Source: Candidatus Parcubacteria bacterium (GTDB lineage Bacteria; Patescibacteriota; Minisyncoccia; Phycocordibacterales; CAIJYI01). From it: DNA of 64,000 nt. Under the pieces are notes generated by a model. That model had not been told where the DNA came from. It saw only the letters and a program-made list of their open reading frames with translations, and did not search any database. The number at the start of each line of letters is the position of its first letter. Position 1 is the first letter of the stretch. This document shows, in pieces, positions 10,966 to 27,686 of this stretch. A program made the position numbers and the translations under genes. The DNA is taken from contig JAPLYL010000003.1 in NCBI GenBank assembly GCA_026395595.1, positions 12,136 through 76,135 on the forward strand, given 5' to 3'.

Positions 10966-10990
10966 TCGTTTGGCTTAACTTAAACCAAAA

Positions 10991-11020
10991 CAATCCGCCC
11001 CAAAGGCGGATTGTTTTTAT
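10991..11020 (+). terminator. rho-independent terminator
   Basis: Hairpin aatccgccccaaaggcggatt followed by gtttttatt. Confidence 0.7.
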
Positions 11021-11095: not shown

Positions 11096-11249
11096 GAGAA
11101 TAGTCTGTATTTACAAGCGATGTTAGAATTTTCAAAAACACTGAATGCGAAGGGTGTCTAGGTGAGATTCGGGGAAGAGATTAGAACCTCCAAACAAATA
11201 TACTGAAAATATCTTCCGTTGATGCTTAATAGTTGATATAATCACTGGT

Positions 11250-11801: not shown

Positions 11802-11891
11802 TATCGAAGACGAGCACATGGTCTCACTGAAAATTATTTTAAATAAAAAGTAACTTACTAAAAAAGAACTCTGACTAAAATCAGAGTTCTT

Positions 11892-11988
11892 TTTTATTCT
11901 TCCATATAGTTCTACCTACTTCTATATCTGTGGAGAAGACTACAGGATATTAGAACCATTTTGATTGAAACACAGGCAATACATTTTC
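11892..11988. repeat. ~95-bp intergenic repeat copy R2
   Basis: Second copy of the R1 module; further TTAGAACC motifs at 11948 and 12048. Confidence 0.5.
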
Positions 11989-12094
11989 TTAGAATCGCAG
12001 ATGAGTGGAGTGGGTCAGATACCTCCGATGGTTATCGTTCGTCAACTCGTTAGAACCACAGAAAGGTTAACAAACGTTAATAACGTTAACGTTG

Positions 12095-13021: not shown

Positions 13022-13041
13022 AGTGGACTTTCATTAAAGGA

Positions 13042-13881
13042 CTACGTTTTATCTTCATTATGTCCAGCTTCCAATTTTATTACGATTTCATTCATTGTAT
13101 AGTGTACAAATTGTTTTCCGAGTTCGGTTAACTCATATTTCTTATCGTCATCGAAAGCTGAGGTTGCATATCTGGTCCCGTTGCTCTTTGATTTACTGCG
13201 CTGGGGAGTCTGAAGTATTATGCTACCGTTGTAGCCACGTTCTTTGTGTTGGGTTATGACGTGCCCAGTACTCAAGTCGTGTATGAGCAGTTTAAACAAA
13301 TCCGCTTCCGCTGAATCTTCTCGAGCTGGGTCTCCGTGTATTTCTTGCCATATTTGCTGGCGAGTGCAACCTGGATTTTTATAGACTTCTCGAATAACCG
13401 CAAAATGTGCTTCAGAATAAATATCTATCCATGTTACAAACATGCGCACAACATCATCACTACATATTTGAGATGAGGCAGAATTTGATAAAAGGTTGCG
13501 CACTAATTTTCTTTTTTCCTCACTTTCTGCAGCCGACCAGTCTCGGAAACATTTTTTTACTATTTTTAGATATTCTGGACTTTCCAAACGTTCACGTATT
13601 TTATCGTCTGTTTGGTCTAGTCGAGTTAAAACTTCAAAAATAGTTTGTCCAATTTCCTTCATCTCATCCTCCTGTAGTTTAAGCCAGCTTCCAAATATAT
13701 TGTTAAACCTTTTTTGTTCTTGTTCTGACCAACTTGCGCCTATACCACCAATGGCTCCACCCGCAAAAGGGACAGAGCTTAAACAAGCTAATGCAAATCG
13801 AGCGACTTTTGGTCCCGCGCCACTTTTTAACGCGTCATCAAGCTGTATTCTCAGCTCGTCTTTTTTTTGATTTTCGTCCAT
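13042..13881 (-). CDS. hypothetical protein, second gene of the lexA-divergent operon
   Basis: 279-aa ORF; 2-nt gap to the upstream gene. Confidence 0.5.
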   Translation of the reverse strand: MDENQKKDELRIQLDDALKSGAGPKVARFALACLSSVPFAGGAIGGIGASWSEQEQKRFNNIFGSWLKLQEDEMKEIGQTIFEVLTRLDQTDDKIRERLESPEYLKIVKKCFRDWSAAESEEKRKLVRNLLSNSASSQICSDDVVRMFVTWIDIYSEAHFAVIREVYKNPGCTRQQIWQEIHGDPAREDSAEADLFKLLIHDLSTGHVITQHKERGYNGSIILQTPQRSKSKSNGTRYATSAFDDDKKYELTELGKQFVHYTMNEIVIKLEAGHNEDKT

Positions 13882-13883
13882 AC

Positions 13884-14528
13884 CTACGTTTCAATAGTTA
13901 TTCCAAGTTTTGCTGATAAACTATTTAGACGTTCTCCGTCTCCCGAAATCTTCTTTTTCCTGTCGTTAATAAAATTAGATAATTCTGATTTAATTTTAGA
14001 ATGTCCTTCTTGAATATCTTTGTTTACCCAACTTATCCAATCTAACAAGTGCTTTTTTTGCGAAGTAACAGCGTTTGATACCCCCGTGTCGTCATGAGCA
14101 AATCCATAGCCTTTAATGTCTACAGAAAATGAAACATAATCATTATGCCAATCAAGGCTTTCTGGAGACCAACTGAATGTGCGGGTTGAAGGGTCAAGAG
14201 TTTTAATTATTTCTAGTGTATCGTTTGTGATTAAGGGGAGAACAATTTCAAGTGACTCATATTCCCATTCTTTATCTCCATCAGATTGATAAAAATCATC
14301 CCTCATGTGGGTGGGCACAATCCTCATTTCTTTTTTGAGTCGCATTATTTCTTTTCGATCAGTGTCAAACTCAATAGGGAGGAGAACATCTTCTGATGTT
14401 AAAAGCTCCTCTAGAAATTCCTCTGTGGTTTTATTGAGAATTTTTTCGTTAGGGCTAATTTGTATTTGTTTTTCCAGAGCACTTAAGAGTGCACGATAAT
14501 AATCTGAAATTGATGGTTTGTTAAACAT
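13884..14528 (-). CDS. hypothetical protein, first gene of the lexA-divergent operon
   Basis: 214-aa ORF, acidic, no motif. Confidence 0.5.
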   Translation of the reverse strand: MFNKPSISDYYRALLSALEKQIQISPNEKILNKTTEEFLEELLTSEDVLLPIEFDTDRKEIMRLKKEMRIVPTHMRDDFYQSDGDKEWEYESLEIVLPLITNDTLEIIKTLDPSTRTFSWSPESLDWHNDYVSFSVDIKGYGFAHDDTGVSNAVTSQKKHLLDWISWVNKDIQEGHSKIKSELSNFINDRKKKISGDGERLNSLSAKLGITIET

Positions 14529-14565
14529 GTTATTTGTGGATAACTTTTATTGCTTTTAAATTTCT

Positions 14566-14592
14566 TTCAAATATAATATAAGTATATTTGAA
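14566..14592. promoter_or_regulatory. perfect 10-bp inverted repeat TTCAAATATA-N7-TATATTTGAA, candidate operator (LexA box?)
   Basis: Lies in the 85-bp divergent intergenic region between lexA and the three-gene operon. Confidence 0.45.
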
Positions 14593-14613
14593 ACTAATTT
14601 GAAGGTCAAGTTT

Positions 14614-15276
14614 ATGCTGGGGAAAAAACAAAAAAAGATTTACGATTATATCACTTCGTATATAAAGGATAATGAAATACCGCCTTCTCTTGATGAAATT
14701 GCGGAGCACTGCTCTTTGGGGTACGCGTCATCTGCTCACTATCACGTAAAAAAACTTGAGGAGGAAGGATATCTTGAAAGGTACGCAGGAAAACCGCGGG
14801 GGATAGGTCTTTATGCAAAAAATGAAGTGCACTCTCCTCGATTGAGGAATATGGGGCTTGATTCTATCGGTATTCCTGTTCTCGGTACTGCCAATGCGGG
14901 ACCAGCCACTCTCTTTGCTGAAGAAGAAGCAATAGGACATTTAAAGGTTTCTAAAAGTATCGTTAAAAAGAAAGACGGGGTGTTTGCACTCAAGGTTGAC
15001 GGAGATTCAATGAACAAAGCACAAGTTAATGGGAAAAGCATATCGGATGGTGATTTTGTGGTTATAGATTCTGAATACAAACATCCGAAAGATGGAGACT
15101 ATGTACTTTCTGTACTAGACGGATGCGCAAACTTAAAGAAATTTTCTCGGGATAAAAAAACTGGTGAAATTTTACTACTATCGGAATCAGACAACCCAAA
15201 ACATAAACCGATTTATGTATCTAGCGAAGATAGTTTTATGGTGAACGGAAAAATCATTGCTGTGGTAAAGAGATAA
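14614..15276 (+). CDS. lexA: LexA repressor (S24 peptidase); ATG at 14614 with GAAGG SD, ORF track TTG at 14599
   Basis: N-terminal wHTH KKIYDYITSYIKDNEIPPSLDEIAEHCSLGYASSAHYHVKKLEEEGYLER. C-terminal peptidase with VDGDSMNKA (Ser) and NGKIIAVVKR (Lys). Confidence 0.85.
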   Translation: MLGKKQKKIYDYITSYIKDNEIPPSLDEIAEHCSLGYASSAHYHVKKLEEEGYLERYAGKPRGIGLYAKNEVHSPRLRNMGLDSIGIPVLGTANAGPATLFAEEEAIGHLKVSKSIVKKKDGVFALKVDGDSMNKAQVNGKSISDGDFVVIDSEYKHPKDGDYVLSVLDGCANLKKFSRDKKTGEILLLSESDNPKHKPIYVSSEDSFMVNGKIIAVVKR

Positions 15277-15406
15277 TTTTCTGTCACCTCGTTCGTGCTA
15301 CTACAAGTAATTTCGGGCGTCTTGTTATTTGCACATATTAAAATAATGTGCTATAATCAACAGCAGAATTTACTTTGAAATAACTTAAATAAAAGAGGAG
15401 AAAAAC

Positions 15407-17425
15407 ATGACGACTAATGCAATTACAGAAGACAAATATCGTTGGATGGAAAGCAATGAAAAGCCCGAAGTTCAAGAGTGGCTGAAACAACAATCCGAAA
15501 CAACAGGAAAATACCTTGATGGTATTCCTGTTCGTAAAGAATTGCGCGAGCAGTTTCAAAAGCTGTTTTCTTTGGATACTGTCGGAACACCAGCACCAAG
15601 AAAGGGGCTTTATTTTGTGATGAAACGCAGAGGCGACCAAGATATGTCGGTACTCTATGTTTCTGAAGGAATTTCAGGAATCCCGCGTGTTCTCATTGAT
15701 CCGAATACTCTTTCGGAAGATAAAACGGTTACAATAAAACAGTGGAGACCCTCTCGTGACGGCAAACTTCTTGCGTACGGATTATCAAATGCTGGAAATG
15801 ATAAGTTCGCCATTTATGTGATGGACGTTGTCACAGGAGTAAAACTTTCTGATGAAATTCCTGATGACTTTTACCCATCATTCTTATCGTGGAATACCGA
15901 TGGAACAGGATTCTGGTATCGGAAACATGACCCGCGAATGCCGATGTCAGAAGCTAAGCTTTACCTACGCATTTATTTTCATGCATTGGGAAGCAAGTAC
16001 CAAGACGACCTTCTTGTTTTTGGTGAAGACCTTGAAAAAGATGATTATCCAGGAATGACTATCTCGCAGGATGGACGATACATGCTTGTTGAGGTCGGAG
16101 GAAGAGACCGCCGAAGCGGAAAATGGTGGAATGAGATTTACCTGCGAGACCTTGCACTTTCAGACGTAAAATTTGTCAAAGTAATGGCTCGTATTCCTGA
16201 TATAACATACGATGGAAGATTACACAGAGATAGGCTGTATGTTATCACAAATCAAGATGCACCACGTATGCAAATTCTGGAAATGGATTTGAACGACGCT
16301 GTTTCAGGTCATGTGATTCCCAAGGTTCTCATACCAGAAGGAAAAGGCGTTATCGACGAAGTCGCTTTTGTCGGAAATAAGATTTTTGTCGCCACTCTTC
16401 AGAATGTTTATTCAGCTATTCACGAATATAACCTACACGGGGATTTTGTTAGCGAAGTTGTATTACCGTCTATCGGCTCCGCAGGAGGTTTCTCTTGCGA
16501 AAAAGAAGGGGAAGAACTTTTCTTTTCATTCGAGTCATTTGCTATTCCGCGTACGATTTATCGGTTGGATTTAGTAAAGAACAACCTTTCTATATTTGCA
16601 CAAATGGAAGCAGGTTTTGATGTTGAAATGATAGAAACAAAACAGGTGTGGTATCCGTCAAAAGACGGAACACAGATTCCGATGTTTCTTGTGTATAAAA
16701 AGGGAGTAGTTCTTGATGGCAATAACCCAACAGTTCTTTATGGATATGGCGGATTTAATATCAGTCTTACTCCATCTTTTAACAAAGGAATCATTCCGTT
16801 TGTATTGCATGGCGGTATTTATGCCATAGCAAATATTCGTGGAGGTGGCGAGTTTGGAAAAGAATGGCATGAAGCAGGAATGCAGAAAAACAAGCAGAAT
16901 GTTTTTGATGACTTTGCAGAAGCGGCAAAATGGCTTATCTCGTCTAAATATACAAGAAAAGAAAAACTTGCAATAGAAGGCGGAAGCAATGGCGGTTTGC
17001 TTGTTACTGCAATCGTTATACAAAATCCTGGCCTTGTTGAAGCGGGAATTGCGTCGGTGCCGGTAACTGACATGTTGCGTTATCACCTCTTTTTCGGCGG
17101 AGTTCATTGGATTCCAGACTATGGAGACCCTGACAATGAAGAGATGAGAAAGTATTTGCTCGGATACAGTCCGTATCACAACGTGAAAGACGGAGAAAAA
17201 TATCCAGCAATGCTTATTGTAACATCGGATAATGATGACCGTGTGCATCCAATGCATTCATATAAAATGACCGCTCGTTTGCAGGAAGCAAATACTTCGA
17301 AGTATCCAATTCTTCTTCGTGTGGAATTGAAAGCGGGGCATGGTGGTGCGAGTGCTATCACCAAGTATGTTGAAGAACAAGCCGATGTGTGGAGTTTTGT
17401 ATTTGATCAGCTGAAAATGCTTTGA
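15407..17425 (+). CDS. prolyl oligopeptidase (S9A family)
   Basis: N-terminal propeller and C-terminal alpha/beta hydrolase with GGSNGGLLV nucleophile elbow; terminator hairpin at 17448-17478. Confidence 0.85.
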   Translation: MTTNAITEDKYRWMESNEKPEVQEWLKQQSETTGKYLDGIPVRKELREQFQKLFSLDTVGTPAPRKGLYFVMKRRGDQDMSVLYVSEGISGIPRVLIDPNTLSEDKTVTIKQWRPSRDGKLLAYGLSNAGNDKFAIYVMDVVTGVKLSDEIPDDFYPSFLSWNTDGTGFWYRKHDPRMPMSEAKLYLRIYFHALGSKYQDDLLVFGEDLEKDDYPGMTISQDGRYMLVEVGGRDRRSGKWWNEIYLRDLALSDVKFVKVMARIPDITYDGRLHRDRLYVITNQDAPRMQILEMDLNDAVSGHVIPKVLIPEGKGVIDEVAFVGNKIFVATLQNVYSAIHEYNLHGDFVSEVVLPSIGSAGGFSCEKEGEELFFSFESFAIPRTIYRLDLVKNNLSIFAQMEAGFDVEMIETKQVWYPSKDGTQIPMFLVYKKGVVLDGNNPTVLYGYGGFNISLTPSFNKGIIPFVLHGGIYAIANIRGGGEFGKEWHEAGMQKNKQNVFDDFAEAAKWLISSKYTRKEKLAIEGGSNGGLLVTAIVIQNPGLVEAGIASVPVTDMLRYHLFFGGVHWIPDYGDPDNEEMRKYLLGYSPYHNVKDGEKYPAMLIVTSDNDDRVHPMHSYKMTARLQEANTSKYPILLRVELKAGHGGASAITKYVEEQADVWSFVFDQLKML

Positions 17426-18211
17426 TTAAACCTTTGTAAAAATCACAAAAGCAGTCTTTCGGGGCTGCTTTTTTTATTGTAAAATTTTACATTTTCGTAA
17501 AAACATAATACTATAAAGTTACAACTTAATATCGTTGACCTAAACCAGCGCTTCGGTGCTGGCATGGTTGAAAATCGTTAGGCAAGAATCGGGGTCAGGT
17601 ACTCATTCTTTTTTAAATCTGTGGTGTAGTATTTTTTGATGGACGACGGACGGCGCACGGGGAATTGTGTGCTTCGCACGCTATTTTACGGGGATATCTT
17701 CCCTTACAGGGACGGTACATGTTTCGTATCTCACTTCGCCTGCGGGCTCGTTATGATATACTCAACATCTTCGATTCCCCACGGAAGACAAGCAGTTGTC
17801 TTCCTCCATCTCCACCGAAAATTTACAAACAAAAAATGCCAGTTTGCAAACTGGCATTTTTTGTGTAAATTTTGGTGGACATACTGTCGGAGGGGTGGAA
17901 CCGCCTTGAGGAGTTTGTTTTTAGGGCTTATGCGATGGTAAAAGGAGTACAAACAACGTAAAAGTACTGAAATCATCGGCTTATTTACTCACACACTGTG
18001 AATGGAACAAAGGCAGGGACGCGTCAAACAACAAAAAAACAAGAAAACGGAAACCTCGCAATTTTGTGGAATTTAATATATAATGAAGCGTATCAGGGGG
18101 GTTAAATTATCGCTGGAATTTTGTAATATTTCAGCACGATTCAGCGTAAGATGGTCGTGCTCGCTACTGATAATAACCGATATTTTTTCAAAACGGAAAC
18201 GAAGCCAAATA

Positions 18212-18382
18212 ATGAGTTTTGTTAAGAATAAGGACAGTAAGATCGAGGTCAAATTTCGAAAAATATTATGGGCACTCGGTTTTCAATACCGCAAACACCC
18301 AAAAGGCTATTTTGGAAAACCTGATGTGGTCTTAAAAAAATATAAAACTGTATTTTTTGTCGATCCTGGTTCAATCATCTAA
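18212..18382 (+). pseudogene. vsr: Vsr-like very-short-patch-repair endonuclease remnant (N-terminal ~56 aa only; catalytic His cluster missing)
   Basis: SKIEVKFRKILWALGFQYRKHPKGYFGKPDVVLKKYKTVFFVD aligns to the Vsr N-terminal half (GxPD retained). The ORF stops before the FVDGCFWH motif; the next gene starts 13 nt later. Confidence 0.5.
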
Positions 18383-18394
18383 AACTTTAATATT

Positions 18395-21103
18395 ATGAAT
18401 AAACCATGTTTGGTGCTTACTCAATCGAGAGAAGAAAGCGGGTATAACGATTTTATCGGGCGTTTTTATCATTTTCCAGAAAAATATCTTGGTCAATTCA
18501 AGGAACTTCCTGCGGAATTTGTTTATTACGAGCCGACAAAAAGCGGGGATGGAGTATATTTCGGATACGGAAGGATAGAAAATCAGCCGACAGCAGACAA
18601 ACGAGAGGACGGACATTATTTTGTAGAGATTTCAGATTATAAGCCTTTTGCAAAACCAGTTCCGTTTAAAAACGAGACCGGGATTATACGAGAAGCGGAC
18701 TCGCCTCATTATAATGCGCAAAATGCGGTACGGAAACTGCCAACACTAACTCTGGATGAAATTTGTCTCGATGGGAAAGTTCGTCTTAATTTCAAGGCGG
18801 ATGCTCACCTCATCAAGGTACTCGGAGAACAACTCATTGCTTCGGAGAAGGTCGGGATACTCGAACTTATTAAAAACGCATACGATGCGGGAGCATCATA
18901 TTGCAGGGTTAGAATCGAAAATATTCCTGGTATGTTGCCCGCGCCGGAAAGCGAATGCTTGTTTCCTGAACTCTCCGGACCAGTAATCATAATTGATGAC
19001 GATGGTTATGGAATGACTCGTTCGGTCATTGAAGACGGCTGGCTGCGACCAGCATCCACTATCAAAACAACGGTGAAAGAAACGATGCGAAAAGAAAGAG
19101 AGAAGGCCGCCGCCTCGGGAAGACTCGGTTCTTATGATAAGCTGATCGACGAAATTAAAAAGGAACGCGGGGGAAGAATACCGTTGGGCGAAAAAGGCGT
19201 TGGCCGGTTTGCTTCGCACCGTCTGGGAAAACGTCTTTTGTTAACGACAAAAACCCGTGATCTTGACTACGAGTATGTGCTCGACATAGATTGGGATCAG
19301 TTTGACAGCGATGATGGTGCGGTTAAAAATCTTGACGCTGTCGGCATAAACTTATACCGCCAAAAGCCATCAAGGAACTATGGAAAGAAAGGGTCCGGAA
19401 CTCAGCTTGTGATACACGGTGGGCGTAAAGGTTTTTCTTGGGAACCGGAAACGGTTGGTGATTTACAAAGATCCATCTCCAGTTTGAATTCCCCTCAGGT
19501 TGTACAAAAACCGGATATGGAATTGCCGTTTAAGGCGTTTTTGGAATGTCCGCAAATAGGATACACAAAGAATGATGCCGAAACACTTACTTTTCCCCCC
19601 ATCTTTTCATTTGACGGACAAATCGATGAAAACGGAATTTTGAAATATACGCTAAAATTTACCCCGCCCAAGTCGGTACCGATGTCGCCCGAAACGACGG
19701 AAGACAAAAACTTTGATCTGAGGAAGGCCAAACCGGAACACTGGAAGAAAACGGAAACGGAAGAAGGTTTTCGAAAACCTGAATCCGGCCCTTTCCGGTT
19801 GCACGTGGATGCATGGTACAGAACCGGTCCGTGGATTGTGGGACCCGAGGTGGATTCGTTTACAAAACGACTTGACGACTTTGGCGGAGTATCGATTTTC
19901 AGAGACGGAATCAATGTTTTCCCCGCGGAATGGGGTGCGGAAACGGATTGGCTTGATTTGTCGACAAGACACATTAAACGGGGACGTCATCTTTCCTACT
20001 ACAACATAATCGGTAATCTGGAAATCAACCAAGAGAATAATATTAATCTCATTGATAAGACAGACCGCGAAGGGTTAATCAAAAACAAAGCGTATAACGA
20101 TTTGGTGCTCCTCACACGGGCGGCCATACTCAATATCCTCGAAATATCTTTTGAAGGAAAGCGCGACCAATATAGCAAATTAATCGGTGAGGTGGTACGA
20201 GACCCCGCTGCATTAAAAAATTATGCAAAACAAGGATCGTCTCTCATTTCATCGATTAAAGAAAAGTACCCGTTCGAACAGGATCCCTATGATATTCTCG
20301 ATTCTGTTGGTAAACCCGCAGAGCGTGGAGAAAATCTCGTTAATCTTTCAACGTCGCTTAAAAACCTTCAGAAGAGTCTTGATCTTATGAAAGAGTCTCA
20401 AGAAATGCTCACCGAACAAGCGGGTTATGGATTGGCTGTCGCCGTTTCAGTACACGAGATTGCGAAGATCGCCGCAAATTTCTATACGGGGGTGTCTCAA
20501 CTTTTGAAGTCCGATCGACAGGATGCCGACAAACTTCGAAATCTCAAAGACGCATCGGCCTCCTTGCAGTCGGAACTTAAACGGCTCAGTCCTCTTCGGG
20601 CTGTTCGTACCGAGGCGCGTACCGAATTCCCAATAACGAAACCGATCAATTTTGCCGTTGAGGTCTTTCGATCCAGATTCGAAAAAATGGGGGTGGAAGT
20701 AAAAGTTAATACCAAAGAACAATTTTCCGTATATGGCAGATACGGCGCATTTGCTCAAGTCTTTTCGAATTTATTTGATAACAGTTGCTATTGGTTAGAG
20801 TCGATGCCGCGCAAAAACAGAAAAATTGAAGTCCTCATAGATGCAAAGCATAGAACGATAACAGTCGCCGATTCGGGTCCGGGTATCGCTGAGGTGATTT
20901 TGCCGTACATTTTCGAGCAGGGCTACAGTTTGAAAATTCCACCAAGCGGTCTCGGCTTATATATCTGCAAACATTATATGCATAGTATGAGGGGAGATAT
21001 TTACCTGACGTTGGACAGAGAAAGAATAAACGAACTTTCTGGGGCGCAATTTACTCTGGATTTGGGAAAGGTCGAATCAGAACGTCCGATAGCAAAGAAA
21101 TAA
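18395..21103 (+). CDS. 902-aa multidomain protein: N-terminal unknown domain, GHKL/MORC-like ATPase, C-terminal histidine-kinase core (DHp-like plus HATPase_c)
   Basis: N-box ELIKNAYDAGAS, G1 IIIDDDGYGM and G2 GEKGVGRFASHRLG. C-terminal candidate H-box VSVHEIAKIA followed by ITVADSGPGIAEV...GLGLYICKHYMHSMRGDIYL. Confidence 0.7.
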   Translation: MNKPCLVLTQSREESGYNDFIGRFYHFPEKYLGQFKELPAEFVYYEPTKSGDGVYFGYGRIENQPTADKREDGHYFVEISDYKPFAKPVPFKNETGIIREADSPHYNAQNAVRKLPTLTLDEICLDGKVRLNFKADAHLIKVLGEQLIASEKVGILELIKNAYDAGASYCRVRIENIPGMLPAPESECLFPELSGPVIIIDDDGYGMTRSVIEDGWLRPASTIKTTVKETMRKEREKAAASGRLGSYDKLIDEIKKERGGRIPLGEKGVGRFASHRLGKRLLLTTKTRDLDYEYVLDIDWDQFDSDDGAVKNLDAVGINLYRQKPSRNYGKKGSGTQLVIHGGRKGFSWEPETVGDLQRSISSLNSPQVVQKPDMELPFKAFLECPQIGYTKNDAETLTFPPIFSFDGQIDENGILKYTLKFTPPKSVPMSPETTEDKNFDLRKAKPEHWKKTETEEGFRKPESGPFRLHVDAWYRTGPWIVGPEVDSFTKRLDDFGGVSIFRDGINVFPAEWGAETDWLDLSTRHIKRGRHLSYYNIIGNLEINQENNINLIDKTDREGLIKNKAYNDLVLLTRAAILNILEISFEGKRDQYSKLIGEVVRDPAALKNYAKQGSSLISSIKEKYPFEQDPYDILDSVGKPAERGENLVNLSTSLKNLQKSLDLMKESQEMLTEQAGYGLAVAVSVHEIAKIAANFYTGVSQLLKSDRQDADKLRNLKDASASLQSELKRLSPLRAVRTEARTEFPITKPINFAVEVFRSRFEKMGVEVKVNTKEQFSVYGRYGAFAQVFSNLFDNSCYWLESMPRKNRKIEVLIDAKHRTITVADSGPGIAEVILPYIFEQGYSLKIPPSGLGLYICKHYMHSMRGDIYLTLDRERINELSGAQFTLDLGKVESERPIAKK

Positions 21104-21107
21104 AATC

Positions 21108-22541
21108 ATGCGCTATTCCGTTTGCATTATCGATGATGAAATACCTGTTGCCGGAGTTGAAGGTTTTCGGGATACCGAATTGCTTAATTCGTCAAATCTC
21201 GGGCAGCTACTGCGACAAAATGAGCATCCTTGGACAGATGAAGTGGTAAAGCACTTCGTTCAAACGTTGTTGGAGGAAAAGGAGGATGACGGCACTTCGA
21301 AATGGGATGTATATGCTTTTACAAATCCCGCGCTTTATATCAACCATTTGGAAAACGGAACGTTTCGCCCCGATCTCTTGGTTTTTGATTGGGATTATTC
21401 CACCGGAGGTGTTGATTCCGAAGCACGTCTGAAGGAAATCCTCGAAAGAACCTTTTGTCTCGTGTTTGTCTTTTCAAAAGCCGACAGAGAAGACGAAATA
21501 AACGCCATTTTGAGCACACCGGAGTTTTTGGAATATCAAGGTCGGGTGAGTTATCTCAAAAAAGGCGATCCGGCTGCGGACAATGTCAATACTCTTTTGG
21601 AAAAAGCGAATGAAATGGATAAGAACAATTTTTCTTTTAAGTTTGCTGGCAGGTTACGGCGCGAGTCTTTGAAAATCATGGATAGAACTTTGTCCGATCT
21701 TGGTAAAGCGACAGTCAGTGATATTAAAAATTATCTTGCCTTGGAGGACGGAGAAGAAAAGCATGGGCTTATTGACTTTATTGCTGATCGCTTTCGGTCA
21801 GGTCTTGTTGAAACGGATTTTCCTGAATTGACTGAGGCGTACACCACACCCGCAACAACGGGTACAGGAGGGATTGATAATAACCTCGTAAAAAAGATAT
21901 GGGCATATCGACTTTATCGACCCCTTGATGGAACAGTCTCTTTGGCAAATGAACTTGTGCGTCGCGGAGATATTATCAAATACGAAGACAACCATTACCT
22001 TGTTGTATCAGCGGCTTGTGATTTAAAAAGATTTTGGAAAAAAAATTTCGGAACAATAAATTTGCTCCCGCTTCATAGACTTCATAACTCGAATACGGAG
22101 TTAAAAGATTTGCTGAGTTTTTGTTTGGACCCCGAAAATGTCTCAAAAAAATTAAAGACCGGAAAATTTCAAAATCTTACTGGAAGGTTGGGTGATCTTC
22201 CAGACGGTCCGTTCATTTTGCCGTTCTTGAAAGAGAACGACAACTACGAATGTTTCGTCGTACTTCCAAAAGAAATGTCTGGGCATAAAATTCCTGTTCA
22301 TCGAGACGTTTCTGCATTAGAATTAGATAAAAGAAAGGAAGCTTCTCTAAAATATGAGTGGTTGGGAGCGGAAAAGTTGTGTTCGGTATCTGAGCCATTC
22401 CTATCTGCCATAATTCAGCATACGTTTGGGACTATCGGCGGGTATGGAACCCCAGACTACCCTAAGGAGATGAAAAAAATCTTTGAGGAAATTTTAGATG
22501 AGTTCACCGCTGCTATTCCAGCGGAAAGAATACAAACATGA
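21108..22541 (+). CDS. 477-aa protein with degenerate receiver-like N-terminus and uncharacterised C-terminal domain
   Basis: SVCIIDDE (beta1 acidic pair), RPDLLVFDWDY (candidate phospho-Asp), CLVFVFSKAD (Thr/Ser position), VSYLKKG (Lys). Start 4 nt after the upstream stop; ATGA overlap with dcm. Confidence 0.45.
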   Translation: MRYSVCIIDDEIPVAGVEGFRDTELLNSSNLGQLLRQNEHPWTDEVVKHFVQTLLEEKEDDGTSKWDVYAFTNPALYINHLENGTFRPDLLVFDWDYSTGGVDSEARLKEILERTFCLVFVFSKADREDEINAILSTPEFLEYQGRVSYLKKGDPAADNVNTLLEKANEMDKNNFSFKFAGRLRRESLKIMDRTLSDLGKATVSDIKNYLALEDGEEKHGLIDFIADRFRSGLVETDFPELTEAYTTPATTGTGGIDNNLVKKIWAYRLYRPLDGTVSLANELVRRGDIIKYEDNHYLVVSAACDLKRFWKKNFGTINLLPLHRLHNSNTELKDLLSFCLDPENVSKKLKTGKFQNLTGRLGDLPDGPFILPFLKENDNYECFVVLPKEMSGHKIPVHRDVSALELDKRKEASLKYEWLGAEKLCSVSEPFLSAIIQHTFGTIGGYGTPDYPKEMKKIFEEILDEFTAAIPAERIQT

Positions 22542-23578
22542 AAAAATTCAACGCAATAGATTTGTTTTCCGGATGCGGCGGTTTAACACAGGGATTAAAA
22601 ACCGCCGGATTTGAGGTGCTTGCAGCTTTTGATAATGATGACGACTCAATAGCGGCATATCGGTTAAATCACCCGGAAGCCGTTATTTTCGAGGGCGACA
22701 TCCGCAAAGTACAAACGGCGGACGTTAAGAAATTATTGAAGGGAGAGCCCTTGCATCTTTTAGCTGGTTGCCCGCCTTGCCAGGGTTTTTCCTCTATGCG
22801 ACGGCGCAATAATAAAAGAACCAAAAACGATTCTCGAAACAACCTGATTTTGGAATATCTGCGATTTGTGAAAGAACTCGAACCGCTAACGATCATGATG
22901 GAAAATGTTCCCGGTCTGAAAAATTATCATTTGTTTCAGTACACAATGCGCGAATTGCAAAAACTCGGATATAATCCGAAATATCAAGCTGTTAAGATTC
23001 AAGAATACGGAATTCCGCAGCGGCGCAAGCGTCTCGTTGTCGTCGGTTCGTTGCTTGGCGATATTAATATTGCTGGCCCGACAATGGAAAAAATGACGGT
23101 TCGAGATATGATCGGTCACATAGAATCGGTTGCTGAAACGAAAGACCCGATTCATAAAATCGTCGCGTCGCATACACCGGAAGTGATGAAGCGCATAAAA
23201 GCCACTCCCAAAAATGGTGGGAGTCGTTCGGATCTTCCCAAAAAATACGAACTCGAGTGCCACAAAGAAGAAGGGGTGGGGTTTAATGACGTTTACGGTC
23301 GCTTGCGGTGGGACGATTATTCAACGACAATGACTGGCGGTTGTTTAAATCCCTCCAAGGGTCGTTTCTTGCACCCGGAAGAAAATAGAGCGATCACGGC
23401 AAGAGAAGCGGCACTTTTGCAAACTTTTCCTAAGGACTACAAATTTCCGGACCGTATTTCAAAAACTTCAATCTCGTTGTTGATAGGCAACGCCCTTCCG
23501 CCGAAATTCAGCCACATTCAATCAACCAATATTTTGGAACACCTAAAAGAATTTGAGATCAAAAATAAAACGCACTAA
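22538..23578 (+). CDS. dcm: DNA (cytosine-5)-methyltransferase
   Basis: Motif I FSGCGG, motif IV GCPPCQGFS, motif VI ENVPGL, motif VIII QRRKR, motif X GNALPP. Confidence 0.9.
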   Translation: MKKFNAIDLFSGCGGLTQGLKTAGFEVLAAFDNDDDSIAAYRLNHPEAVIFEGDIRKVQTADVKKLLKGEPLHLLAGCPPCQGFSSMRRRNNKRTKNDSRNNLILEYLRFVKELEPLTIMMENVPGLKNYHLFQYTMRELQKLGYNPKYQAVKIQEYGIPQRRKRLVVVGSLLGDINIAGPTMEKMTVRDMIGHIESVAETKDPIHKIVASHTPEVMKRIKATPKNGGSRSDLPKKYELECHKEEGVGFNDVYGRLRWDDYSTTMTGGCLNPSKGRFLHPEENRAITAREAALLQTFPKDYKFPDRISKTSISLLIGNALPPKFSHIQSTNILEHLKEFEIKNKTH

Positions 23579-23593
23579 TGGACCAAATTGTGT

Positions 23594-23790
23594 AAAAAAC
23601 CACACAAACCGCACACTGCAAATGGTTCCAGACGATACGAAAAAACGTGAAAATGGCACAAACGGCACACCCAACGCATTCATTATATCCAGCTTTTACG
23701 TCGAAATGACACAAACGACACACGAAACCGCACAAACCTCACACAGAAAATGGCTTATTATTGTGAAAATGCCACAAATGCCACACTCAC
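23594..23790. repeat. iteron-like array of five ~21-bp units, each a duplicated half-site xCACAAAy-xCACAC with covarying x
   Basis: Units at about 23596, 23650, 23703, 23724 and 23765 (GGCACAAACGGCACAC, GACACAAACGACACAC, GCCACAAATGCCACAC and so on). Start-to-start spacing is 54, 53, 21 and 41 bp, roughly whole helical turns. Confidence 0.55.
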
Positions 23791-23939
23791 GCTCGTTGTT
23801 TTACACCCAAGGCGACCACAATCGACTGTGTGGGGAGTTTTGGCGCGGGTTTAAGGTTTCCTCGGTTTTGAACAAAAAGACAGACCGCGAGAATTTTTGA
23901 AGGAAAACTGGATTTATCAGCGAACGTGGAGTAAAATGA

Positions 23940-24140
23940 AACTACAACTAAATAAGTATTGACCTAACCCACCGGGTCTGCCGATGGTATGGTCAGAGAG
24001 TCGATCAAGCATAAAGAACCCGTCAGGGGGTTTGCTTGATCGCCATATCGGGAAACCGGTATGAAGGGCTTCGGCTCTTACCCGTGGCGGGCTTTTTGTA
24101 CCCGAAACCGCGGTTATAAATAAGACGATCAAGCAAATTT
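23940..24140 (+). promoter_or_regulatory. structured 5' leader (candidate cis-regulatory RNA) upstream of 24141 gene
   Basis: About 190-nt ORF-free leader with nested hairpins (gatcaagca...tgcttgatc) and a short cccgtggcggg-ctttttg terminator-like stem before the start codon. Confidence 0.3.
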
Positions 24141-24569
24141 ATGGAAGAAGTAAAAAAGGAACCTCCGCGGAAAAGTCATTTACTCCGCGTATTGTTCATA
24201 TCTATCGGAATTATTATTTTTGTTCCGTTTATCGTTGGTTTAAGTACGGGCGCGGGTAAGGGCAAAACTCTAAACCAGCCGCAGATCGGAGAAACATATA
24301 CCCTTAACTATAACGACGATGTATCCAATTGCGACGGAAAAGTTGTCGTGCCAATCGATGAAAAAAGTCAGGAAGCTTACGGCAAAGCGGCGGTGGCGAA
24401 AGATAATGAAGAAATTGCCATGATGGTACTTGAGGGTAACGCCTTCTTCGTACCGAACTGCACAACCGTGAAAGTGATAGATCGAAACATGTACATACGA
24501 AAAATCAGAATTATGGATGGAGAACAAACATTAAAAACAGGGTGGGTTCCGAATGAATATTTGAAGTAA
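24141..24569 (+). CDS. small secreted/membrane-anchored protein, hypothetical
   Basis: N-terminal TM/signal segment LLRVLFISIGIIIFVPFIVGLS. Confidence 0.45.
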   Translation: MEEVKKEPPRKSHLLRVLFISIGIIIFVPFIVGLSTGAGKGKTLNQPQIGETYTLNYNDDVSNCDGKVVVPIDEKSQEAYGKAAVAKDNEEIAMMVLEGNAFFVPNCTTVKVIDRNMYIRKIRIMDGEQTLKTGWVPNEYLK

Positions 24570-24638
24570 GAGAAGAACGATAAAAGCTCGCCGATAAAAA
24601 ATATTGGCGGTCTTTTGTTTTTAGGGTAATATGAGCGC

Positions 24639-25328
24639 ATGAAAGGTGACACAAACAAACTCTCGCGCGGGGAGAAACTTTTTCAGCGTATATCTCAAGG
24701 AGAAAAGTTTACCCATCTCGTAGAAAACATACGGAAAAACTATAAAATCTCGACTGAAGGATTTTCATTTCAGGAAGATATTACGGACTGGTATGCACAG
24801 CATAGCTCGGGGGTCGGGTCCGGAGACTACGAAGAATTCAAGGATGAAATAAACAAACTGCTCATGAAAAATGCACTGCCAGTCAATCAGTGGTGGTGGA
24901 CGAGGGCAACGACGCATATTTTGTCCGGAGACAAGGTTTCTTTTCTACCGCCGTTGCACTCGTTTCAGCATCCGTTTGTTGAAATGATGGATAAGCATGT
25001 CGGAAGAGATGGAAGTTACACTGATATTCGTTTATATGAGGGAGCGGTCCAAAGGGATATGGATGATTTCATGAGCGAAAATTGGGGACGGATGAAACCA
25101 TCGTATCGTGTGGGTACCATCCAAAAAATTCGCAAAGAAAGTCCCGTTGATATCGAAATCAATAAGGAGGCGGATTTCCTTTTGAGGCACTCAAAAAGTG
25201 ATCTTGGAATAAAGAACACGACAAAAGAAATCGCCGTGAGCGGACATCTTACGAAAAAATATGGCAAAAAAATAACGAGCGATTCTGTAAAAATGCGGGT
25301 TCAACGATTGCGTCGAAAGAAGAGGTAA
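24639..25328 (+). CDS. hypothetical protein (basic C-terminal tail QRLRRKKR)
   Basis: 229-aa ORF, no motif. Confidence 0.45.
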   Translation: MKGDTNKLSRGEKLFQRISQGEKFTHLVENIRKNYKISTEGFSFQEDITDWYAQHSSGVGSGDYEEFKDEINKLLMKNALPVNQWWWTRATTHILSGDKVSFLPPLHSFQHPFVEMMDKHVGRDGSYTDIRLYEGAVQRDMDDFMSENWGRMKPSYRVGTIQKIRKESPVDIEINKEADFLLRHSKSDLGIKNTTKEIAVSGHLTKKYGKKITSDSVKMRVQRLRRKKR

Positions 25329-25470
25329 CAGATATTGCACCGCAATACATGTCACTTACCGGAAAAAGAAAAAATGCGACCATAATCTTGTGGCCGCATT
25401 TTGCGTCCACGAGGTGACGTCACAAAGCTCAAGCCGCTCCGGTGAGTCACCCTCCGGAGCGGCTTAGTGC

Positions 25471-25644
25471 ATGAATGACACAAGGCTCACAATTGAAAAT
25501 TGCCGAAAACTTTTAGGTGATGAAGATTTAATCGACGAGAGGGTCGTGGAAATTCGCGATGCCTTGTATTCCATTGCGGAAAGTGTTTTTGATAAACACA
25601 AAAACACTGGATATACCCCGGATATAGGGTATAATTCTCAATAA
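25471..25644 (+). CDS. candidate 57-aa small protein immediately upstream of the recombinase (possible accessory or directionality factor)
   Basis: ORF MNDTRLTIENCRKLLGDEDLIDERVVEIRDALYSIAESVF..., below the ORF-track length cutoff; ends 11 nt before the recombinase start. Confidence 0.25.
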   Translation: MNDTRLTIENCRKLLGDEDLIDERVVEIRDALYSIAESVFDKHKNTGYTPDIGYNSQ

Positions 25645-25655
25645 TCAAAAAGTTT

Positions 25656-27257
25656 ATGTTAGATGGTGATAAAAAAGAAATCGCGCTTATCTACTGTCGA
25701 GTTTCTTCTGAACGGCAAAAAAATGATGGTCATGGTCTTGATGGGCAGGAACATCGTTGCCGGATCCATGCGGAAGATCAAGGGTATGAAGTTGAAAAAA
25801 TTTTCAGAGATAGTTTCAGTGGGGCGGGAGATTTTATGCAACGTCCCGCGATGGCAGAAATGATAAACTACATGGATAAGAACGCACATAAAAAGTATGT
25901 GGTGATTTTTGACGACCTTTCTCGTTTTGCCAGAGATACAGTATTTCATCTCAAACTGGCGTCGGCGTTTAAGGTGCGCGGGGCGCGACGCGAATGTCTC
26001 AATTTTAACTTTGATGATTCTCCGGAAGGGGAATTTGCTGAAACGATCGTAGCCGCTTCAAACGCTCTTGACCGGCAGAAAAACCGTCGTCAGGTTATCC
26101 AGAAGCAAAAAGCGCGTCTAGAAAAAGGATACTGGCCATTCTTCCCGCCACCGGGATATAAGCATATAAAAGATCCGGTTCACGGAAAACTTTTGACCCC
26201 GGAGGAACCCAAGGCAAGTATCATAAGGGAGGCGTTTGAAGGCTTTGCCAATGGACGTTTTTTGACACAAACAGACGTTATGAAGTTTCTCAGGGAAAAA
26301 GATTTTTGTGACGGAAAACCAACGCATCTTTTTTATGTAAAAAGATTGCTGGTTCGAGCCGTTTATTCAGGATACATAGAGTATCCCGACTGGGGCGTTT
26401 CGAGAATGCTCGGACATCATAAACCAATTGTTGATCCGGAAGTATGGGGACAAGTTCAGAAAAAACTCTCGGAAAAAGCCCCGATACGGACGAGAAAGGA
26501 CTATAGCTGTATCTTATCTCTTCGCGGATATGCTTGTTGTGCTTATTGCGGTGAACCAATGACAGGAAGCGAGAGCACGGGACGGCACGGAAATAAATTC
26601 GCTTACTATCGTTGTCGAAACAGAAATTGCTCGCATCGAACCAAAAGCATAAAGAAAAAAGACCTTGAGGATGAATTCTGCCGGATTCTTGGTAATACAC
26701 AACCGAAAAAGAATATCATCACATTAGCAAGGGCGATCATCGAAGATGTTTATTCGAAAAGACAAAATTCCTCTGGTGAGCTGTTCAGTCGAACGGAAAA
26801 ACAGATCGCAAAGATTGACGAAGAAATGAAGGCTCTCGGCTTACTGGCAGGGAGGTCGAAAAAAGAAAGCGCCATCACTTTGTACGAAGAGCAGATCGAC
26901 GATTTAAGCAAAAAGAAAAAGGAACTGGAGAAAAAGAGAGACTCTACGGCTTCCGGTCCTGTGAGTGTTGGAACCGCTTTTGACGAAGTGATGAAATATC
27001 TGAATGATCCAGTAAATATGTGGGTTAATGGTGATCCAAACGACAAAAGACGAGTGCAAGCACTCGTCTTTGAGGAAAACTTCGTATACGATCGGAAAAA
27101 CGGTGTTGGAACCGCCAAAGTGTCAGTCCTGTACGAGTTTTTTGAGCGAACTCGCGACCGCGAGTTGCAGGATGTGGAGATGGGGGGAATCGAACCCCCG
27201 TGCAAAAAGGAACTCTCGTTACTTTGTACAAACGTATTCTGTTTATTTTTTGTTTGA
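25656..27257 (+). CDS. large serine recombinase (resolvase/invertase catalytic domain, recombinase domain, zinc ribbon, coiled coil)
   Basis: N-terminus ALIYCRVSSERQKNDGHGLDGQ holds the catalytic Ser motif. Zn ribbon CCAYCGEPMTGS...YYRCRNRNC. C-terminal codons run into the tRNA-like repeat. Confidence 0.9.
   Translation: MLDGDKKEIALIYCRVSSERQKNDGHGLDGQEHRCRIHAEDQGYEVEKIFRDSFSGAGDFMQRPAMAEMINYMDKNAHKKYVVIFDDLSRFARDTVFHLKLASAFKVRGARRECLNFNFDDSPEGEFAETIVAASNALDRQKNRRQVIQKQKARLEKGYWPFFPPPGYKHIKDPVHGKLLTPEEPKASIIREAFEGFANGRFLTQTDVMKFLREKDFCDGKPTHLFYVKRLLVRAVYSGYIEYPDWGVSRMLGHHKPIVDPEVWGQVQKKLSEKAPIRTRKDYSCILSLRGYACCAYCGEPMTGSESTGRHGNKFAYYRCRNRNCSHRTKSIKKKDLEDEFCRILGNTQPKKNIITLARAIIEDVYSKRQNSSGELFSRTEKQIAKIDEEMKALGLLAGRSKKESAITLYEEQIDDLSKKKKELEKKRDSTASGPVSVGTAFDEVMKYLNDPVNMWVNGDPNDKRRVQALVFEENFVYDRKNGVGTAKVSVLYEFFERTRDRELQDVEMGGIEPPCKKELSLLCTNVFCLFFV
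27172..27200 (-). other. tRNA 3'-fragment-like sequence (T-arm GGGGGTTCGATTCCCCC plus acceptor 3' strand), no 5' half
   Basis: Minus strand reads gggggttcgattccccccatctccaca. No complementary 5' acceptor strand within 100 nt. Equals the right inverted repeat of the 17770-27200 segment. Confidence 0.55.
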
Positions 27258-27686
27258 GCTTGAAAAGTTTGAAACAGACAAAATCTTTACAAGCCGAGCT
27301 TCCTTTATTTTGAAAATACGCCAAAACGCTCATATTTTCTATCCTGAAGTTTATTACACTGATATTTTCCTAACAGGATTCAGAATATATCAATGCCGAA
27401 TTTACGCTAAAGCGAATTCCGGAGCAAAGGAGAAATATGGTGAAACCATACCCTTTACTTTTGAAGATAAGTTTGCACTTATTCTTTTTTCCTGCACACG
27501 ATAACGGACGAGCAGGAGTAGCCGGTTTGAGTAAACGAGAGAGCGGCTTATTGTCTAGGCCGATCATCCCCATATATTTGTCTTTCAAAGGACTCCTCTA
27601 TTATACTCCAATGCCTTGGTACTTGTCAAATATCATTTTGCGTGCTACTCTCATCTCGGATAAGTTATTTGAAGAGGGAAAAAAGA

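What the first reader, a model, noticed from the sequence alone, without database searches (positions are those of the whole stretch)
17770..27200. 9.4-kb segment bracketed by inverted tRNA-like repeats, ending in a large serine recombinase: candidate invertible or mobile island
Seen in sequence: plus-strand 17770-17815 reads TTCGATTCCCC-[25-nt hairpin ggaagacaa-gcag-ttgtcttcc]-CCATCTCCAC. The reverse complement of 27174-27199 reads TTCGATTCCCCCCATCTCCAC. That is 21 of 21 matching positions in inverted orientation. The right repeat resembles a tRNA T-arm plus 3' acceptor strand with no 5' half. The 533-aa serine recombinase gene terminates inside it. The segment has about 600 bp of ORF-free, hairpin-rich DNA at its left end (17480-18080) and carries accessory-type cargo.

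Inference: serine recombinases acting on inverted sites invert DNA, and large serine integrases leave repeats at element ends. This could be an invertible switch for the defence operon or a degenerate integrative element whose attachment core is tRNA-derived.
Basis: partly seen in the sequence, partly recalled or inferred. Interest (0 to 1): 0.75.

Follow-up and report, generated by a model that had tools for sequence, protein, structure and literature searches.

The report
Serine-integrase island inserted at tmRNA gene
The 9.3-kb segment is a mobile island that a large serine integrase inserted at the last bases of the tmRNA gene; the inverted repeats are an older host palindrome that the insertion split, not the island's ends or an inversion switch.

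Summary
The split 11+10-nt inverted match is real. The right arm, however, is the 3' end of a complete tmRNA gene (27172-27571, minus strand), not a 5'-less tRNA fragment.

The true island junctions are a 5-bp direct repeat, GTGGA, at 17875-17879 and 27174-27178. The island is 9,299 bp. Island-free relatives (L121, L104, L117) carry the left arm, a terminator and the tmRNA gene contiguously. The insertion therefore split a pre-existing palindrome. Inversion is not supported; mobility is.

The recombinase belongs to a large family. In 56 of 80 genomic loci its gene runs convergently into a tmRNA or tRNA 3' end.

The recombinase gene spans attP. Its native C-terminal helix is encoded at the far end of the island (17875-17961). 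That peptide is conserved at about 38 loci and lies within a continuous reading frame in a circular 12.3-kb relative (L175). In the chromosome the gene instead ends in antisense tmRNA (VEMGGIEPPCK).

Cargo is an m5C methyltransferase with Vsr, plus a LOOT RNA, which recurs in these elements.

The closest precedent is the Dehalococcoides ssrA islands with DsiB (McMurdie 2011). This is a new variant of a known kind.

The left-arm hairpin module is conserved (126/126 Watson-Crick cells) and remains unexplained.

The parts
27172..27571 (-). Complete tmRNA (ssrA) gene, the integration target. Its last 21 nt (27174-27194) are the finding's right arm.
   Evidence: ARAGORN. Rfam RF00023, 114.7 bits, full model.
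27174..27178 (+). attL core GTGGA (TCCAC, the 3' terminus of tmRNA). This is the right junction of the island.
   Evidence: Empty-site alignment to L121. att reconstruction.
17875..17879 (+). attR core GTGGA, the left junction of the island.
   Evidence: The same GTGGA + CAY..TTGGAACC junction occurs in about 38 related loci.
17880..27178 (+). The integrated island, 9,299 bp.
   Evidence: It is bounded by the two GTGGA cores. Relatives lack this segment at the homologous site.
25656..27257 (+). Large serine recombinase ORF as it stands in the chromosome (533 aa). Codons from 27174 onward (VEMGGIEPPCK...) are antisense tmRNA, that is, host DNA.
   Evidence: Pfam Resolvase, Recombinase and Zn_ribbon_recom. 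Homologue alignment A1..
17875..17961 (+). Detached 3' exon of the recombinase gene. It encodes VDILSEGWNRLEEFVFRAYAMVKGVQTT* and is in frame with 25656-27173 once the element circularises. It also forms the P arm of attP.
   Evidence: In-frame join. Peptide conserved at the distal ends of related loci. It is the natural C-terminus of P0015, P0114 and P0120. The ORF is continuous in the circular L175.
18083..18382 (+). Vsr very-short-patch endonuclease (cargo).
   Evidence: Pfam PF03852, E = 9e-24. PADLOC Vsr.
18395..21103 (+). 902-aa protein with two GHKL ATPase domains (cargo, role unknown).
   Evidence: Pfam HATPase_c and HATPase_c_3. No defence-system model matched.
21108..22541 (+). 477-aa protein with no family match (cargo).
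   Evidence: no hits.
22538..23578 (+). C5 cytosine DNA methyltransferase (cargo).
   Evidence: Pfam PF00145, E = 2e-57. PADLOC MTase_II, E = 2e-89. Homologues occur in other islands of the family.
23961..24079 (+). LOOT RNA gene inside the island.
   Evidence: Rfam RF03000, 73.4 bits against a gathering score of 46.4. LOOT lies inside 10 related elements, including the circular one.
24141..25328 (+). Two ORFs (142 aa and 229 aa) between LOOT and the recombinase. They have no known family and could include an excision factor.
   Evidence: no family hit and no homologue in the fetched loci.
17770..17815 (+). The finding's left arm, a mirror copy of the tmRNA 3' end split by a 9-bp/GCAG hairpin (stem 17783-17791 with 17796-17804). 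It lies outside the island and pre-dates it.
   Evidence: Hairpin covariation: 126/126 Watson-Crick cells, 8 of 9 pairs compensatory.
17829..17864 (.). Bidirectional terminator palindrome. It was the tmRNA gene's own terminator before the insertion; with its flanks (17818-17873) it forms the centre of the split palindrome.
   Evidence: (I6, I17). It is contiguous with tmRNA in L121, L104 and L117.
17537..17671 (+). LOOT-like fragment, with further decayed repeat units up to 17769. These are probably debris of earlier insertions at this hot spot.
   Evidence: Rfam LOOT, 28 bits, E = 0.004, below the gathering score. Homology to L123 and L129 units.

Best explanation
An integrative mobile element of 9.3 kb has been inserted by its own large serine recombinase into the extreme 3' end (TCCAC) of the tmRNA gene of a Patescibacteria-like bacterium.

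How the insertion worked:
- The crossover lies within the 5-bp core GTGGA, which is shared by attP and attB.
- The tmRNA gene stays whole, apart from losing its encoded CCA and its terminator.
- Before the insertion, the tmRNA 3' end, its terminator and a mirror copy of the 3' end formed one long palindrome. The island landed inside one arm. That is why a tmRNA-like 21-mer now appears in inverted orientation 9.4 kb away.

The split recombinase gene:
- The recombinase gene spans attP.
- In the circular form it ends in a conserved helix of about 28 aa, encoded at what becomes the far end of the island.
- After integration that exon is detached, and the gene instead runs into antisense tmRNA.

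Shown: the junctions, the empty site in relatives, the family-wide targeting of t(m)RNA genes, the conserved detached exon, and a circular relative.

Inferred: that this particular copy is still mobile, and that the C-terminal swap alters the enzyme's activity or directionality.
For: Target and junctions:
- The tmRNA gene is complete.
- Window 17770-17879 joined to 27179-27571 aligns colinearly with island-free L121. The match is near-identical across the junction (TTTTGGTGGAGATGGGGGGAATCGAACCCCCGTGCAAAAAGG).
- L104/L145 and L117 have the same contiguous layout.

Family-wide pattern:
- In 56 of 80 genome loci the recombinase gene overlaps the 3' end of a gene on the opposite strand: 20 tmRNA, 28 tRNA-Ala and 8 other tRNAs.
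- 83 of the 120 best homologues end in t(m)RNA-antisense peptides such as VEMGGIEPP.

Split gene:
- An in-frame join gives ...LQD-VDILSEGWNRLEEF....
- A profile of that tail finds it, starting at GTGGA, in 39 loci including the window. In the 19 loci where both junctions were located, the two cores lie 3.3-11.7 kb apart.
- The same tail is the natural C-terminus of P0015, P0114 and P0120.
- L175 is a circular contig (55-nt terminal overlap, bridged by L176) with an uninterrupted recombinase gene.
- In the AlphaFold model of P0114 the tail is one helix, residues 496-524.

Precedent:
- McMurdie 2011 (PMC3146451) reports that the Dehalococcoides ssrA-island integrase gene dsiB always overlaps attL and ssrA.
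Against: - No read-level evidence of excision or of an empty site in the same strain. The empty sites come from other species: identity is 76% overall, though near-perfect at the junction.
- The exact recombinase is not on record elsewhere.
- Base composition does not set the island apart from its flanks.
- No recombination directionality factor was identified. ORFs 24141-25328 have no homologues.
- The symmetry expected of a serine-integrase attP could not be separated from the coding constraint on the same bases.
- The function of the C-terminal swap is untested.
Confidence: 0.85

Rival explanations
1. Invertible segment. The serine recombinase flips 17770-27200 between the two inverted tRNA-like repeats and so switches expression of the restriction-modification genes.
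For: The inverted 11+10-nt match is real and not due to chance. Serine recombinases can invert DNA (general knowledge).
Against: - The left arm is split by 25 nt. It is present next to the tmRNA terminator in genomes that have no island and no recombinase.
- The real junctions are direct GTGGA cores.
- The enzyme is a three-domain integrase type, not a small invertase.
- 56 related loci show the convergent layout.
- Inversion at the arms would place a 25-nt insertion in the tmRNA acceptor/T junction.
Confidence: 0.03
2. Decayed, immobile remnant. The island integrated once by the mechanism above but can no longer excise.
For: No directionality factor was recognised. There is no circular junction or empty allele for this exact element. 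The hot spot around it holds decayed debris.
Against: - The recombinase ORF is full length, with the invariant catalytic and zinc-ribbon residues of the family.
- Both cores are intact and the detached exon is open and in frame.
- The exon is conserved at the protein level across loci. That conservation requires selection acting in the circular form.
Confidence: 0.1
3. The left arm belongs to a small structured RNA gene on the plus strand (about 17520-17870). It has a three-way junction, the GCAG hairpin and a single-stranded tail identical to the tmRNA acceptor 3' strand, and it mimics or interacts with tmRNA.
For: - The folds are far more stable than shuffled controls (z = -4.9 to -8.9).
- The same layout recurs in the other loci folded (L016, L036 and the unit sequences taken from L121 and L105).
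- It ends at a strong terminator, and a promoter-like site lies at 17486-17514.
- The window copy keeps GGGGAU, which could pair with AUCUCC including a G.U at the alanine-identity position.
Against: - The hairpin shows 0 G.U pairs in 126 cells, which is unusual for an RNA helix and typical of a DNA palindrome.
- The 5' partner arm is decayed in several copies.
- No Rfam family matches.
- There are no expression data.
Confidence: 0.25
4. The left arm is part of a miniature, gene-less integrative unit of about 170-215 nt that targets the tmRNA T-loop. It carries its own replacement 3' end plus terminator and stacks in tandem, like the integration-module-less ssrA islands of Dehalococcoides.
For: - Units recur in tandem downstream of tmRNA or tRNA-Ala in L121, L105, L129, L096, L016, L027, L036, L037 and L040.
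- They carry a roughly 20-bp direct copy of the t(m)RNA 3' end that breaks at GGAATCG|GTCAC.
- Their arms track the local target gene.
- In L088 the native flank and the displaced 3' end lie outside the unit.
- Precedent.
Against: - No recombinase is assigned to these units.
- The window copy is a variant that lacks the GGTCAC...CGACCCCG motif.
- The purpose of the mirror copy and of the GCAG hairpin remains unexplained.
Confidence: 0.4

Closest known systems
Dehalococcoides ssrA-specific genomic islands with the CcrB-like serine recombinase DsiB (McMurdie et al. 2011, PMC3146451)
   Same: [quoted passage not shown]
- The integrase gene is convergent with ssrA, overlaps attL and stops inside ssrA.
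- Tandem accumulation at the site, including units with no integration genes.
- ParB and a second serine recombinase are part of the module; here both are seen in the circular relative L175.
   Different: [quoted passage not shown] Here the shared core is 5 bp at the very 3' terminus.
- There, the authors judged the overlap region divergent and only speculated that the gene is complete in the circle. Here the detached exon is identified, conserved, and seen joined in a circular contig.
- The host phylum differs.
- A LOOT RNA is present here instead of the tRNA-Gly-like locus.
- Sequence homology to DsiB itself could not be tested.
Tyrosine-integrase islands and prophages in tRNA/tmRNA genes (Islander/TIGER catalogues; PMC4383910, PMC7192596)
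   Same: The target class is the same, the integrase sits next to the target gene, the target gene is preserved, and islands stack in tandem.
   Different: - The catalytic family is different.
- There is no long identity block that restores the gene. Only the last bases after TCCAC are replaced, and the encoded CCA is lost.
- PMC7192596 found only 14 of 297 serine-integrase elements at t(m)RNA genes and called such use unreported.
Genes that span attP and are therefore changed by integration: SSV1-type archaeal integrases and integration-dependent immunity of mycobacteriophage BPs (recalled from general knowledge, not checked here)
   Same: The attachment site lies inside a coding sequence of the element, so integration alters the C-terminus of the product.
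   Different: - Those systems use tyrosine recombinases.
- In SSV1 the integrase gene is split into two large parts, and in BPs the affected gene is the repressor.
- Here a serine integrase loses only a roughly 28-aa terminal helix and gains a host-encoded tail.
Staphylococcal SCCmec recombinases CcrA/CcrB
   Same: Large serine recombinases that insert an island at the 3' end of one essential, single-copy host gene. The NCBIfam CcrB model matches at 75.7 bits, far below its cut-off of 900.
   Different: The target is a protein-coding gene (rlmH, by general knowledge). The recombinases work as a pair. The recombinase gene does not span the attachment site.

Membership tests
Large serine recombinase (serine integrase) | N-terminal resolvase catalytic domain with the serine nucleophile motif | tested here: met
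   Pfam PF00239, E = 9.7e-21, residues 10-159. R15-V16-S17-S18 and Q21 are invariant in alignment A1.
Large serine recombinase (serine integrase) | Recombinase domain followed by a zinc-ribbon domain | tested here: met
   PF07508 (residues 186-274) and PF13408 (residues 289-341), both above their cut-offs. Four invariant cysteines: C295, C298, C320 and C325.
Large serine recombinase (serine integrase) | Coiled-coil motif inserted in the zinc-ribbon domain | tested here: inconclusive
   The AlphaFold model of homologue P0114 has long helices at 344-392 and 396-422, immediately after the zinc-ribbon strands. The window protein itself was not modelled.
Site-specific integrative island at a t(m)RNA gene | Integrase gene adjacent to an intact target gene | tested here: met
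   The recombinase ORF overlaps a full-length tmRNA gene. The same holds in 56 of 80 related loci.
Site-specific integrative island at a t(m)RNA gene | Uninterrupted (empty) target site in relatives | tested here: met
   L121, L104/L145 and L117 carry mirror copy, terminator and tmRNA contiguously. They are different species, so this is not a same-strain comparison.
Site-specific integrative island at a t(m)RNA gene | Excised circular form | tested here: inconclusive
   It is shown for a relative: L175 is circular and has attP inside an uninterrupted recombinase gene.
Dehalococcoides-type ssrA island (DsiB module) | Serine recombinase gene overlapping attL and ending inside ssrA | tested here: met
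   The ORF at 25656-27257 crosses the core at 27174 and ends 84 nt into ssrA. The feature is as described in PMC3146451.
Dehalococcoides-type ssrA island (DsiB module) | [quoted passage not shown] | tested here: not met
   Only GTGGA is shared by the two junctions. There is no direct copy of the 21-mer in the window at up to 3 mismatches. The small neighbouring units do show T-loop junctions.
Dehalococcoides-type ssrA island (DsiB module) | Module with a second small serine recombinase, ParB, Mom and a tRNA-like locus | tested here: not met
   None of these is in the window island. The circular relative L175/L176 has ParB_N and a second recombinase.
Dehalococcoides-type ssrA island (DsiB module) | Sequence homology of the integrase to DsiB | not testable with these tools
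Invertible DNA switch | Recombination sites in inverted orientation at the ends of the segment, with both orientations found | tested here: not met
   The junction cores are direct. The inverted arm pre-exists without the island. The alternative orientation could not be sought in reads.
LOOT RNA (Rfam RF03000) | Score at or above the curated gathering threshold over the full model | tested here: met
   23961-24079: 73.4 bits against 46.4, model positions 1-121. The second site, 17537-17671, fails at 28.2 bits.

The most novel reading that the evidence does not exclude
Integration acts as a built-in switch on the integrase itself. Only the circular element encodes the full enzyme with its conserved C-terminal amphipathic helix. 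The chromosomal copy makes a chimera whose tail is antisense tmRNA, and its mRNA 3' end is complementary to the abundant tmRNA. This could set directionality or silence the enzyme without a separate factor, in a family that spans Patescibacteria and Alphaproteobacteria. The element-borne LOOT RNA would be part of the same control.
Probability: 0.3. Interest if true: 0.7.

Novelty: new variant of a known kind. Interest (0 to 1): 0.5.

Why it matters
- **A dedicated t(m)RNA-targeting family.** Serine integrases are prized genome-engineering tools. How they choose direction is an active question, and their use of tRNA or tmRNA genes has been regarded as rare or unproven. This locus leads to a large, cross-phylum family that is dedicated to the last bases of tmRNA and tRNA-Ala genes.
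- **A testable natural experiment.** The family's own reading frame is rewired by integration, so one enzyme exists with two C-termini.
- **A genomic home for LOOT RNA.** The orphan LOOT RNA family is placed inside mobile elements.
- **A defence-gene vehicle.** The island is flagged as a small carrier of restriction-modification genes in ultra-small bacteria.
- **A caution for the scan.** An inverted repeat around a recombinase can be a split host palindrome rather than the recombinase's sites.

Tried and rejected
- **Exact-protein look-ups.** Look-ups of the recombinase and of the right-flank gene found nothing.
- **Logan contigs from SRR20698640.** They reproduce the window (L001 = 9371-17794; L183 = 17835-27197) but give no alternative junction. 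The start of L183 is explained by the 36-nt perfect terminator palindrome, which exceeds k = 31. The end of L001, in the GCAG loop, is unexplained.
- **Half-site search.** A search for the hairpin half-site elsewhere in the window returned chance-level matches.
- **Base composition.** It does not mark the island.
- **Cargo and accessory ORFs.** PADLOC and NCBIfam gave no system for the 902-aa and 477-aa proteins. The 142-aa and 229-aa ORFs have no family hit and no homologue in 180 loci.
- **attP symmetry.** The arms could not be judged for symmetry because both arms are coding.
- **Viral contigs.** They hold only 6 distant relatives, so a phage identity is unlikely.
- **An early misreading.** I first read GTGGACA..TTGGAACC..TATATT as a promoter or operator. 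Protein-level conservation showed it is coding sequence.
- **A second misreading.** I considered the direct 16-20-nt remnants in L036, L037 and L027 as the island's far junction. Comparison of L083 with L036 showed that they belong to the small outer units.
Full report
**1. Observation**

The plus strand at 17770-17815 reads TTCGATTCCCC, then 25 nt (A-CGGAAGACAA-GCAG-TTGTCTTCC-T), then CCATCTCCAC. The minus strand at 27174-27194 reads the same 21 nt without the insert. No other copy exists in the window at up to 3 mismatches, and shuffles give none.

ARAGORN and Rfam both call a complete tmRNA gene at 27172-27571 on the minus strand (114.7 bits against a gathering score of 47, full model). So the arm is simply the T-loop, T-stem and acceptor 3' strand of that gene. 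The 533-aa recombinase ORF (25656-27257) reads through the arm and stops 63 nt deeper in the tmRNA gene.

**2. The recombinase family targets t(m)RNA 3' ends**

- The protein has resolvase, recombinase and zinc-ribbon domains.
- It has more than 1,400 homologues at E below 1e-20. The best is 60% identical, and the few hits that carry a source name are from Parcubacteria or Paceibacterota.
- In the alignment most C-termini read VEMGGIEPPCK, VEMAGIEPA, VEMRGIEPR or VEMARIELA. This is the antisense translation of an acceptor strand and T-arm, and T-stem covariation shows up as paired amino-acid changes.
- In 56 of 80 genome loci fetched with the family profile, a gene on the opposite strand overlaps the end of the recombinase gene: 20 tmRNA, 28 tRNA-Ala and 8 other tRNAs.

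**3. True junctions and the empty site**

- The closest relatives (L083, L086) have no inverted copy. Their host flank and terminator run straight into GTGGACACCC...TTGGAA(T/C)C.
- A metagenome scan for the split motif gave about ten real loci.
- In L121, L104/L145 and L117 the split copy, a terminator and the antisense tmRNA gene are contiguous, with no recombinase present.
- Window 17770-17879 joined to 27179-27571 aligns colinearly to L121, and the match is almost perfect across the joint.
- The island is therefore 17880-27178 (9,299 bp), flanked by GTGGA at 17875-17879 and 27174-27178 in direct orientation.
- Before the insertion, the tmRNA gene ended ...CCATCTCCA-CCA, followed by the 17864-17829 terminator. 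Now it ends ...CCA-CAU and has no terminator.

**4. Why there is an inverted repeat**

In island-free genomes the tmRNA 3' end, trailer and terminator are mirrored on the other side of the terminator. The island inserted into the tmRNA-side arm of this palindrome and pushed the two arms 9.4 kb apart. The arms are therefore neither products nor substrates of the recombinase.

**5. The recombinase gene spans attP**

- Joining 27173 to 17875 keeps the reading frame and gives ...LQD-VDILSEGWNRLEEFVFRAYAMVKGVQTT*.
- The equivalent stretch after GTGGA in other loci encodes VD[IT]L...WNQ[IL]ESY[IV]F, with synonymous differences between loci.
- A profile of it finds the exon in 39 loci including the window. 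In the 19 loci where both junctions were located, the two cores lie 3.3-11.7 kb apart.
- Database proteins P0015, P0114, P0120, P0111, P0039 and P0096 carry this tail as their natural end.
- P0015 lies on L175, a 12,376-bp contig whose last 55 nt repeat its first 55 nt. An independent contig, L176, bridges the two ends. L175 is therefore a circle with an uninterrupted recombinase gene. It also carries Prim-Pol/AAA_25, ParB, a second serine recombinase and a protein kinase and a LOOT RNA.
- An AlphaFold model of P0114 (mean pLDDT 84.6) shows the tail as a single helix, residues 496-524.
- Conservation of an exon that is not joined to the gene in the chromosome implies regular passage through the circular form.

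**6. Cargo**

- Vsr, a C5 cytosine methyltransferase, a 902-aa double GHKL ATPase and a 477-aa unknown protein.
- Methyltransferase homologues recur in other islands of the family.
- LOOT RNA (RF03000) lies inside the element in the window and in L003, L004, L007, L009, L016, L036, L082, L083, L086 and L175.

**7. The left-arm module**

- Downstream of tmRNA or tRNA-Ala, many Patescibacteria loci carry one to three units of about 170-215 nt.
- Each unit consists of a direct copy of the t(m)RNA 3' end breaking at GGAATCG|GTCAC, two hairpins around CGCGACCCCGNCTCG, the mirror copy split by ACG-N8-GCAG-N8'-C, and a terminator.
- The arms follow the local target gene.
- Across 14 distinct copies the 9-bp hairpin is Watson-Crick in 126 of 126 cells. 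Eight of nine pairs show compensatory changes, and there is no G.U pair. This argues for selection on a DNA-level palindrome, or for a copying mechanism, rather than for a typical RNA helix.
- The folds are much more stable than shuffles.
- I regard a miniature, gene-less tmRNA-targeting unit as the leading reading and a small RNA as the alternative. Neither is shown.
- The window copy is a variant shared with L123 and L129.

**8. Literature**

- McMurdie et al. 2011 (PMC3146451) described Dehalococcoides ssrA islands. Their CcrB-like recombinase gene dsiB always overlaps attL and ends inside ssrA. They report tandem arrays and units without integration genes. They speculated that dsiB may be complete only in the circle.
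- Mageeney et al. 2020 (PMC7192596) found 14 of 297 serine-integrase elements at t(m)RNA genes and regarded such use as unreported.
- I found no paper on LOOT function.

**9. Verdict**

- The invertible-switch reading is rejected; the mobile-island reading is upheld.
- The element is a new variant of the ssrA-island kind. It uses a terminal 5-bp core rather than a T-loop 20-mer, its detached exon is demonstrated, it carries LOOT, and its host phylum is new.
- Interest is moderate (0.5). It rests on the family-wide split integrase gene and on the unexplained palindromic module, not on the original hypothesis.

Noticed in passing
window 23961-24079; also L003, L004, L007, L009, L016, L036, L082, L083, L086, L175: LOOT RNA (RF03000), an orphan RNA family, lies inside the serine-integrase element in 11 of 17 sequences examined, including the circular episomal form. 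It is usually 1-2 kb upstream of the integrase gene.
   Followed up: partly
window 11020-11085 and 11893-11960: Two further sites consist of a terminator, a conserved flank (TTATTCTTCCATAT...TATATC), GTGGAGA and a motif ending in TTAGAACC. The flank matches the native tmRNA downstream flank of L036, L083, L088 and L105. The first junction is identical to one that sits beside the tmRNA terminator in L123. The insertion hot spot may therefore reach back to about 11054, which would make the LexA-like and prolyl-oligopeptidase genes part of older insertions.
   Followed up: partly
L105 (as oriented) 5835-5870; L001 end = window 17794: In L105 a third unit has its GCAG hairpin broken just after the loop (ACGGAAGACAAGCAGTT|AGACTTG...). 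An independent Logan contig of the window's own sequence ends in the same loop. The loop may be an insertion or recombination point.
   Followed up: no
window 17537-17580: The 5' hairpin of a LOOT-like RNA (GACCTAAACC...GGCATGG; 28 bits, below threshold) lies outside the island. A promoter-like site lies at 17486-17514. It is probably a relic of an earlier element of the same family.
   Followed up: partly
window 27172-27178: Integration replaces the tmRNA gene's encoded CCA (seen in the reconstructed attB and in L121) by CAU and removes its terminator. The tmRNA must now rely on 3' trimming and CCA addition. Its read-through transcript would be antisense to the recombinase mRNA.
   Followed up: no
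L027 4750-5000 and 5620-5850; L009 4137 and 5110; L062 5375 and 6153: Some loci carry two copies of the detached recombinase exon 0.8-1 kb apart. This indicates tandem or remnant islands of the same family at one target.
   Followed up: no
L043-L080 (Rhodobacteraceae and other Alphaproteobacteria): The same recombinase family sits against tRNA-Ala, tRNA-Thr and tRNA-Tyr genes in cultured marine Alphaproteobacteria. There the encoded CCA is kept, and the tail profile built from Patescibacteria found no exon.
   Followed up: no
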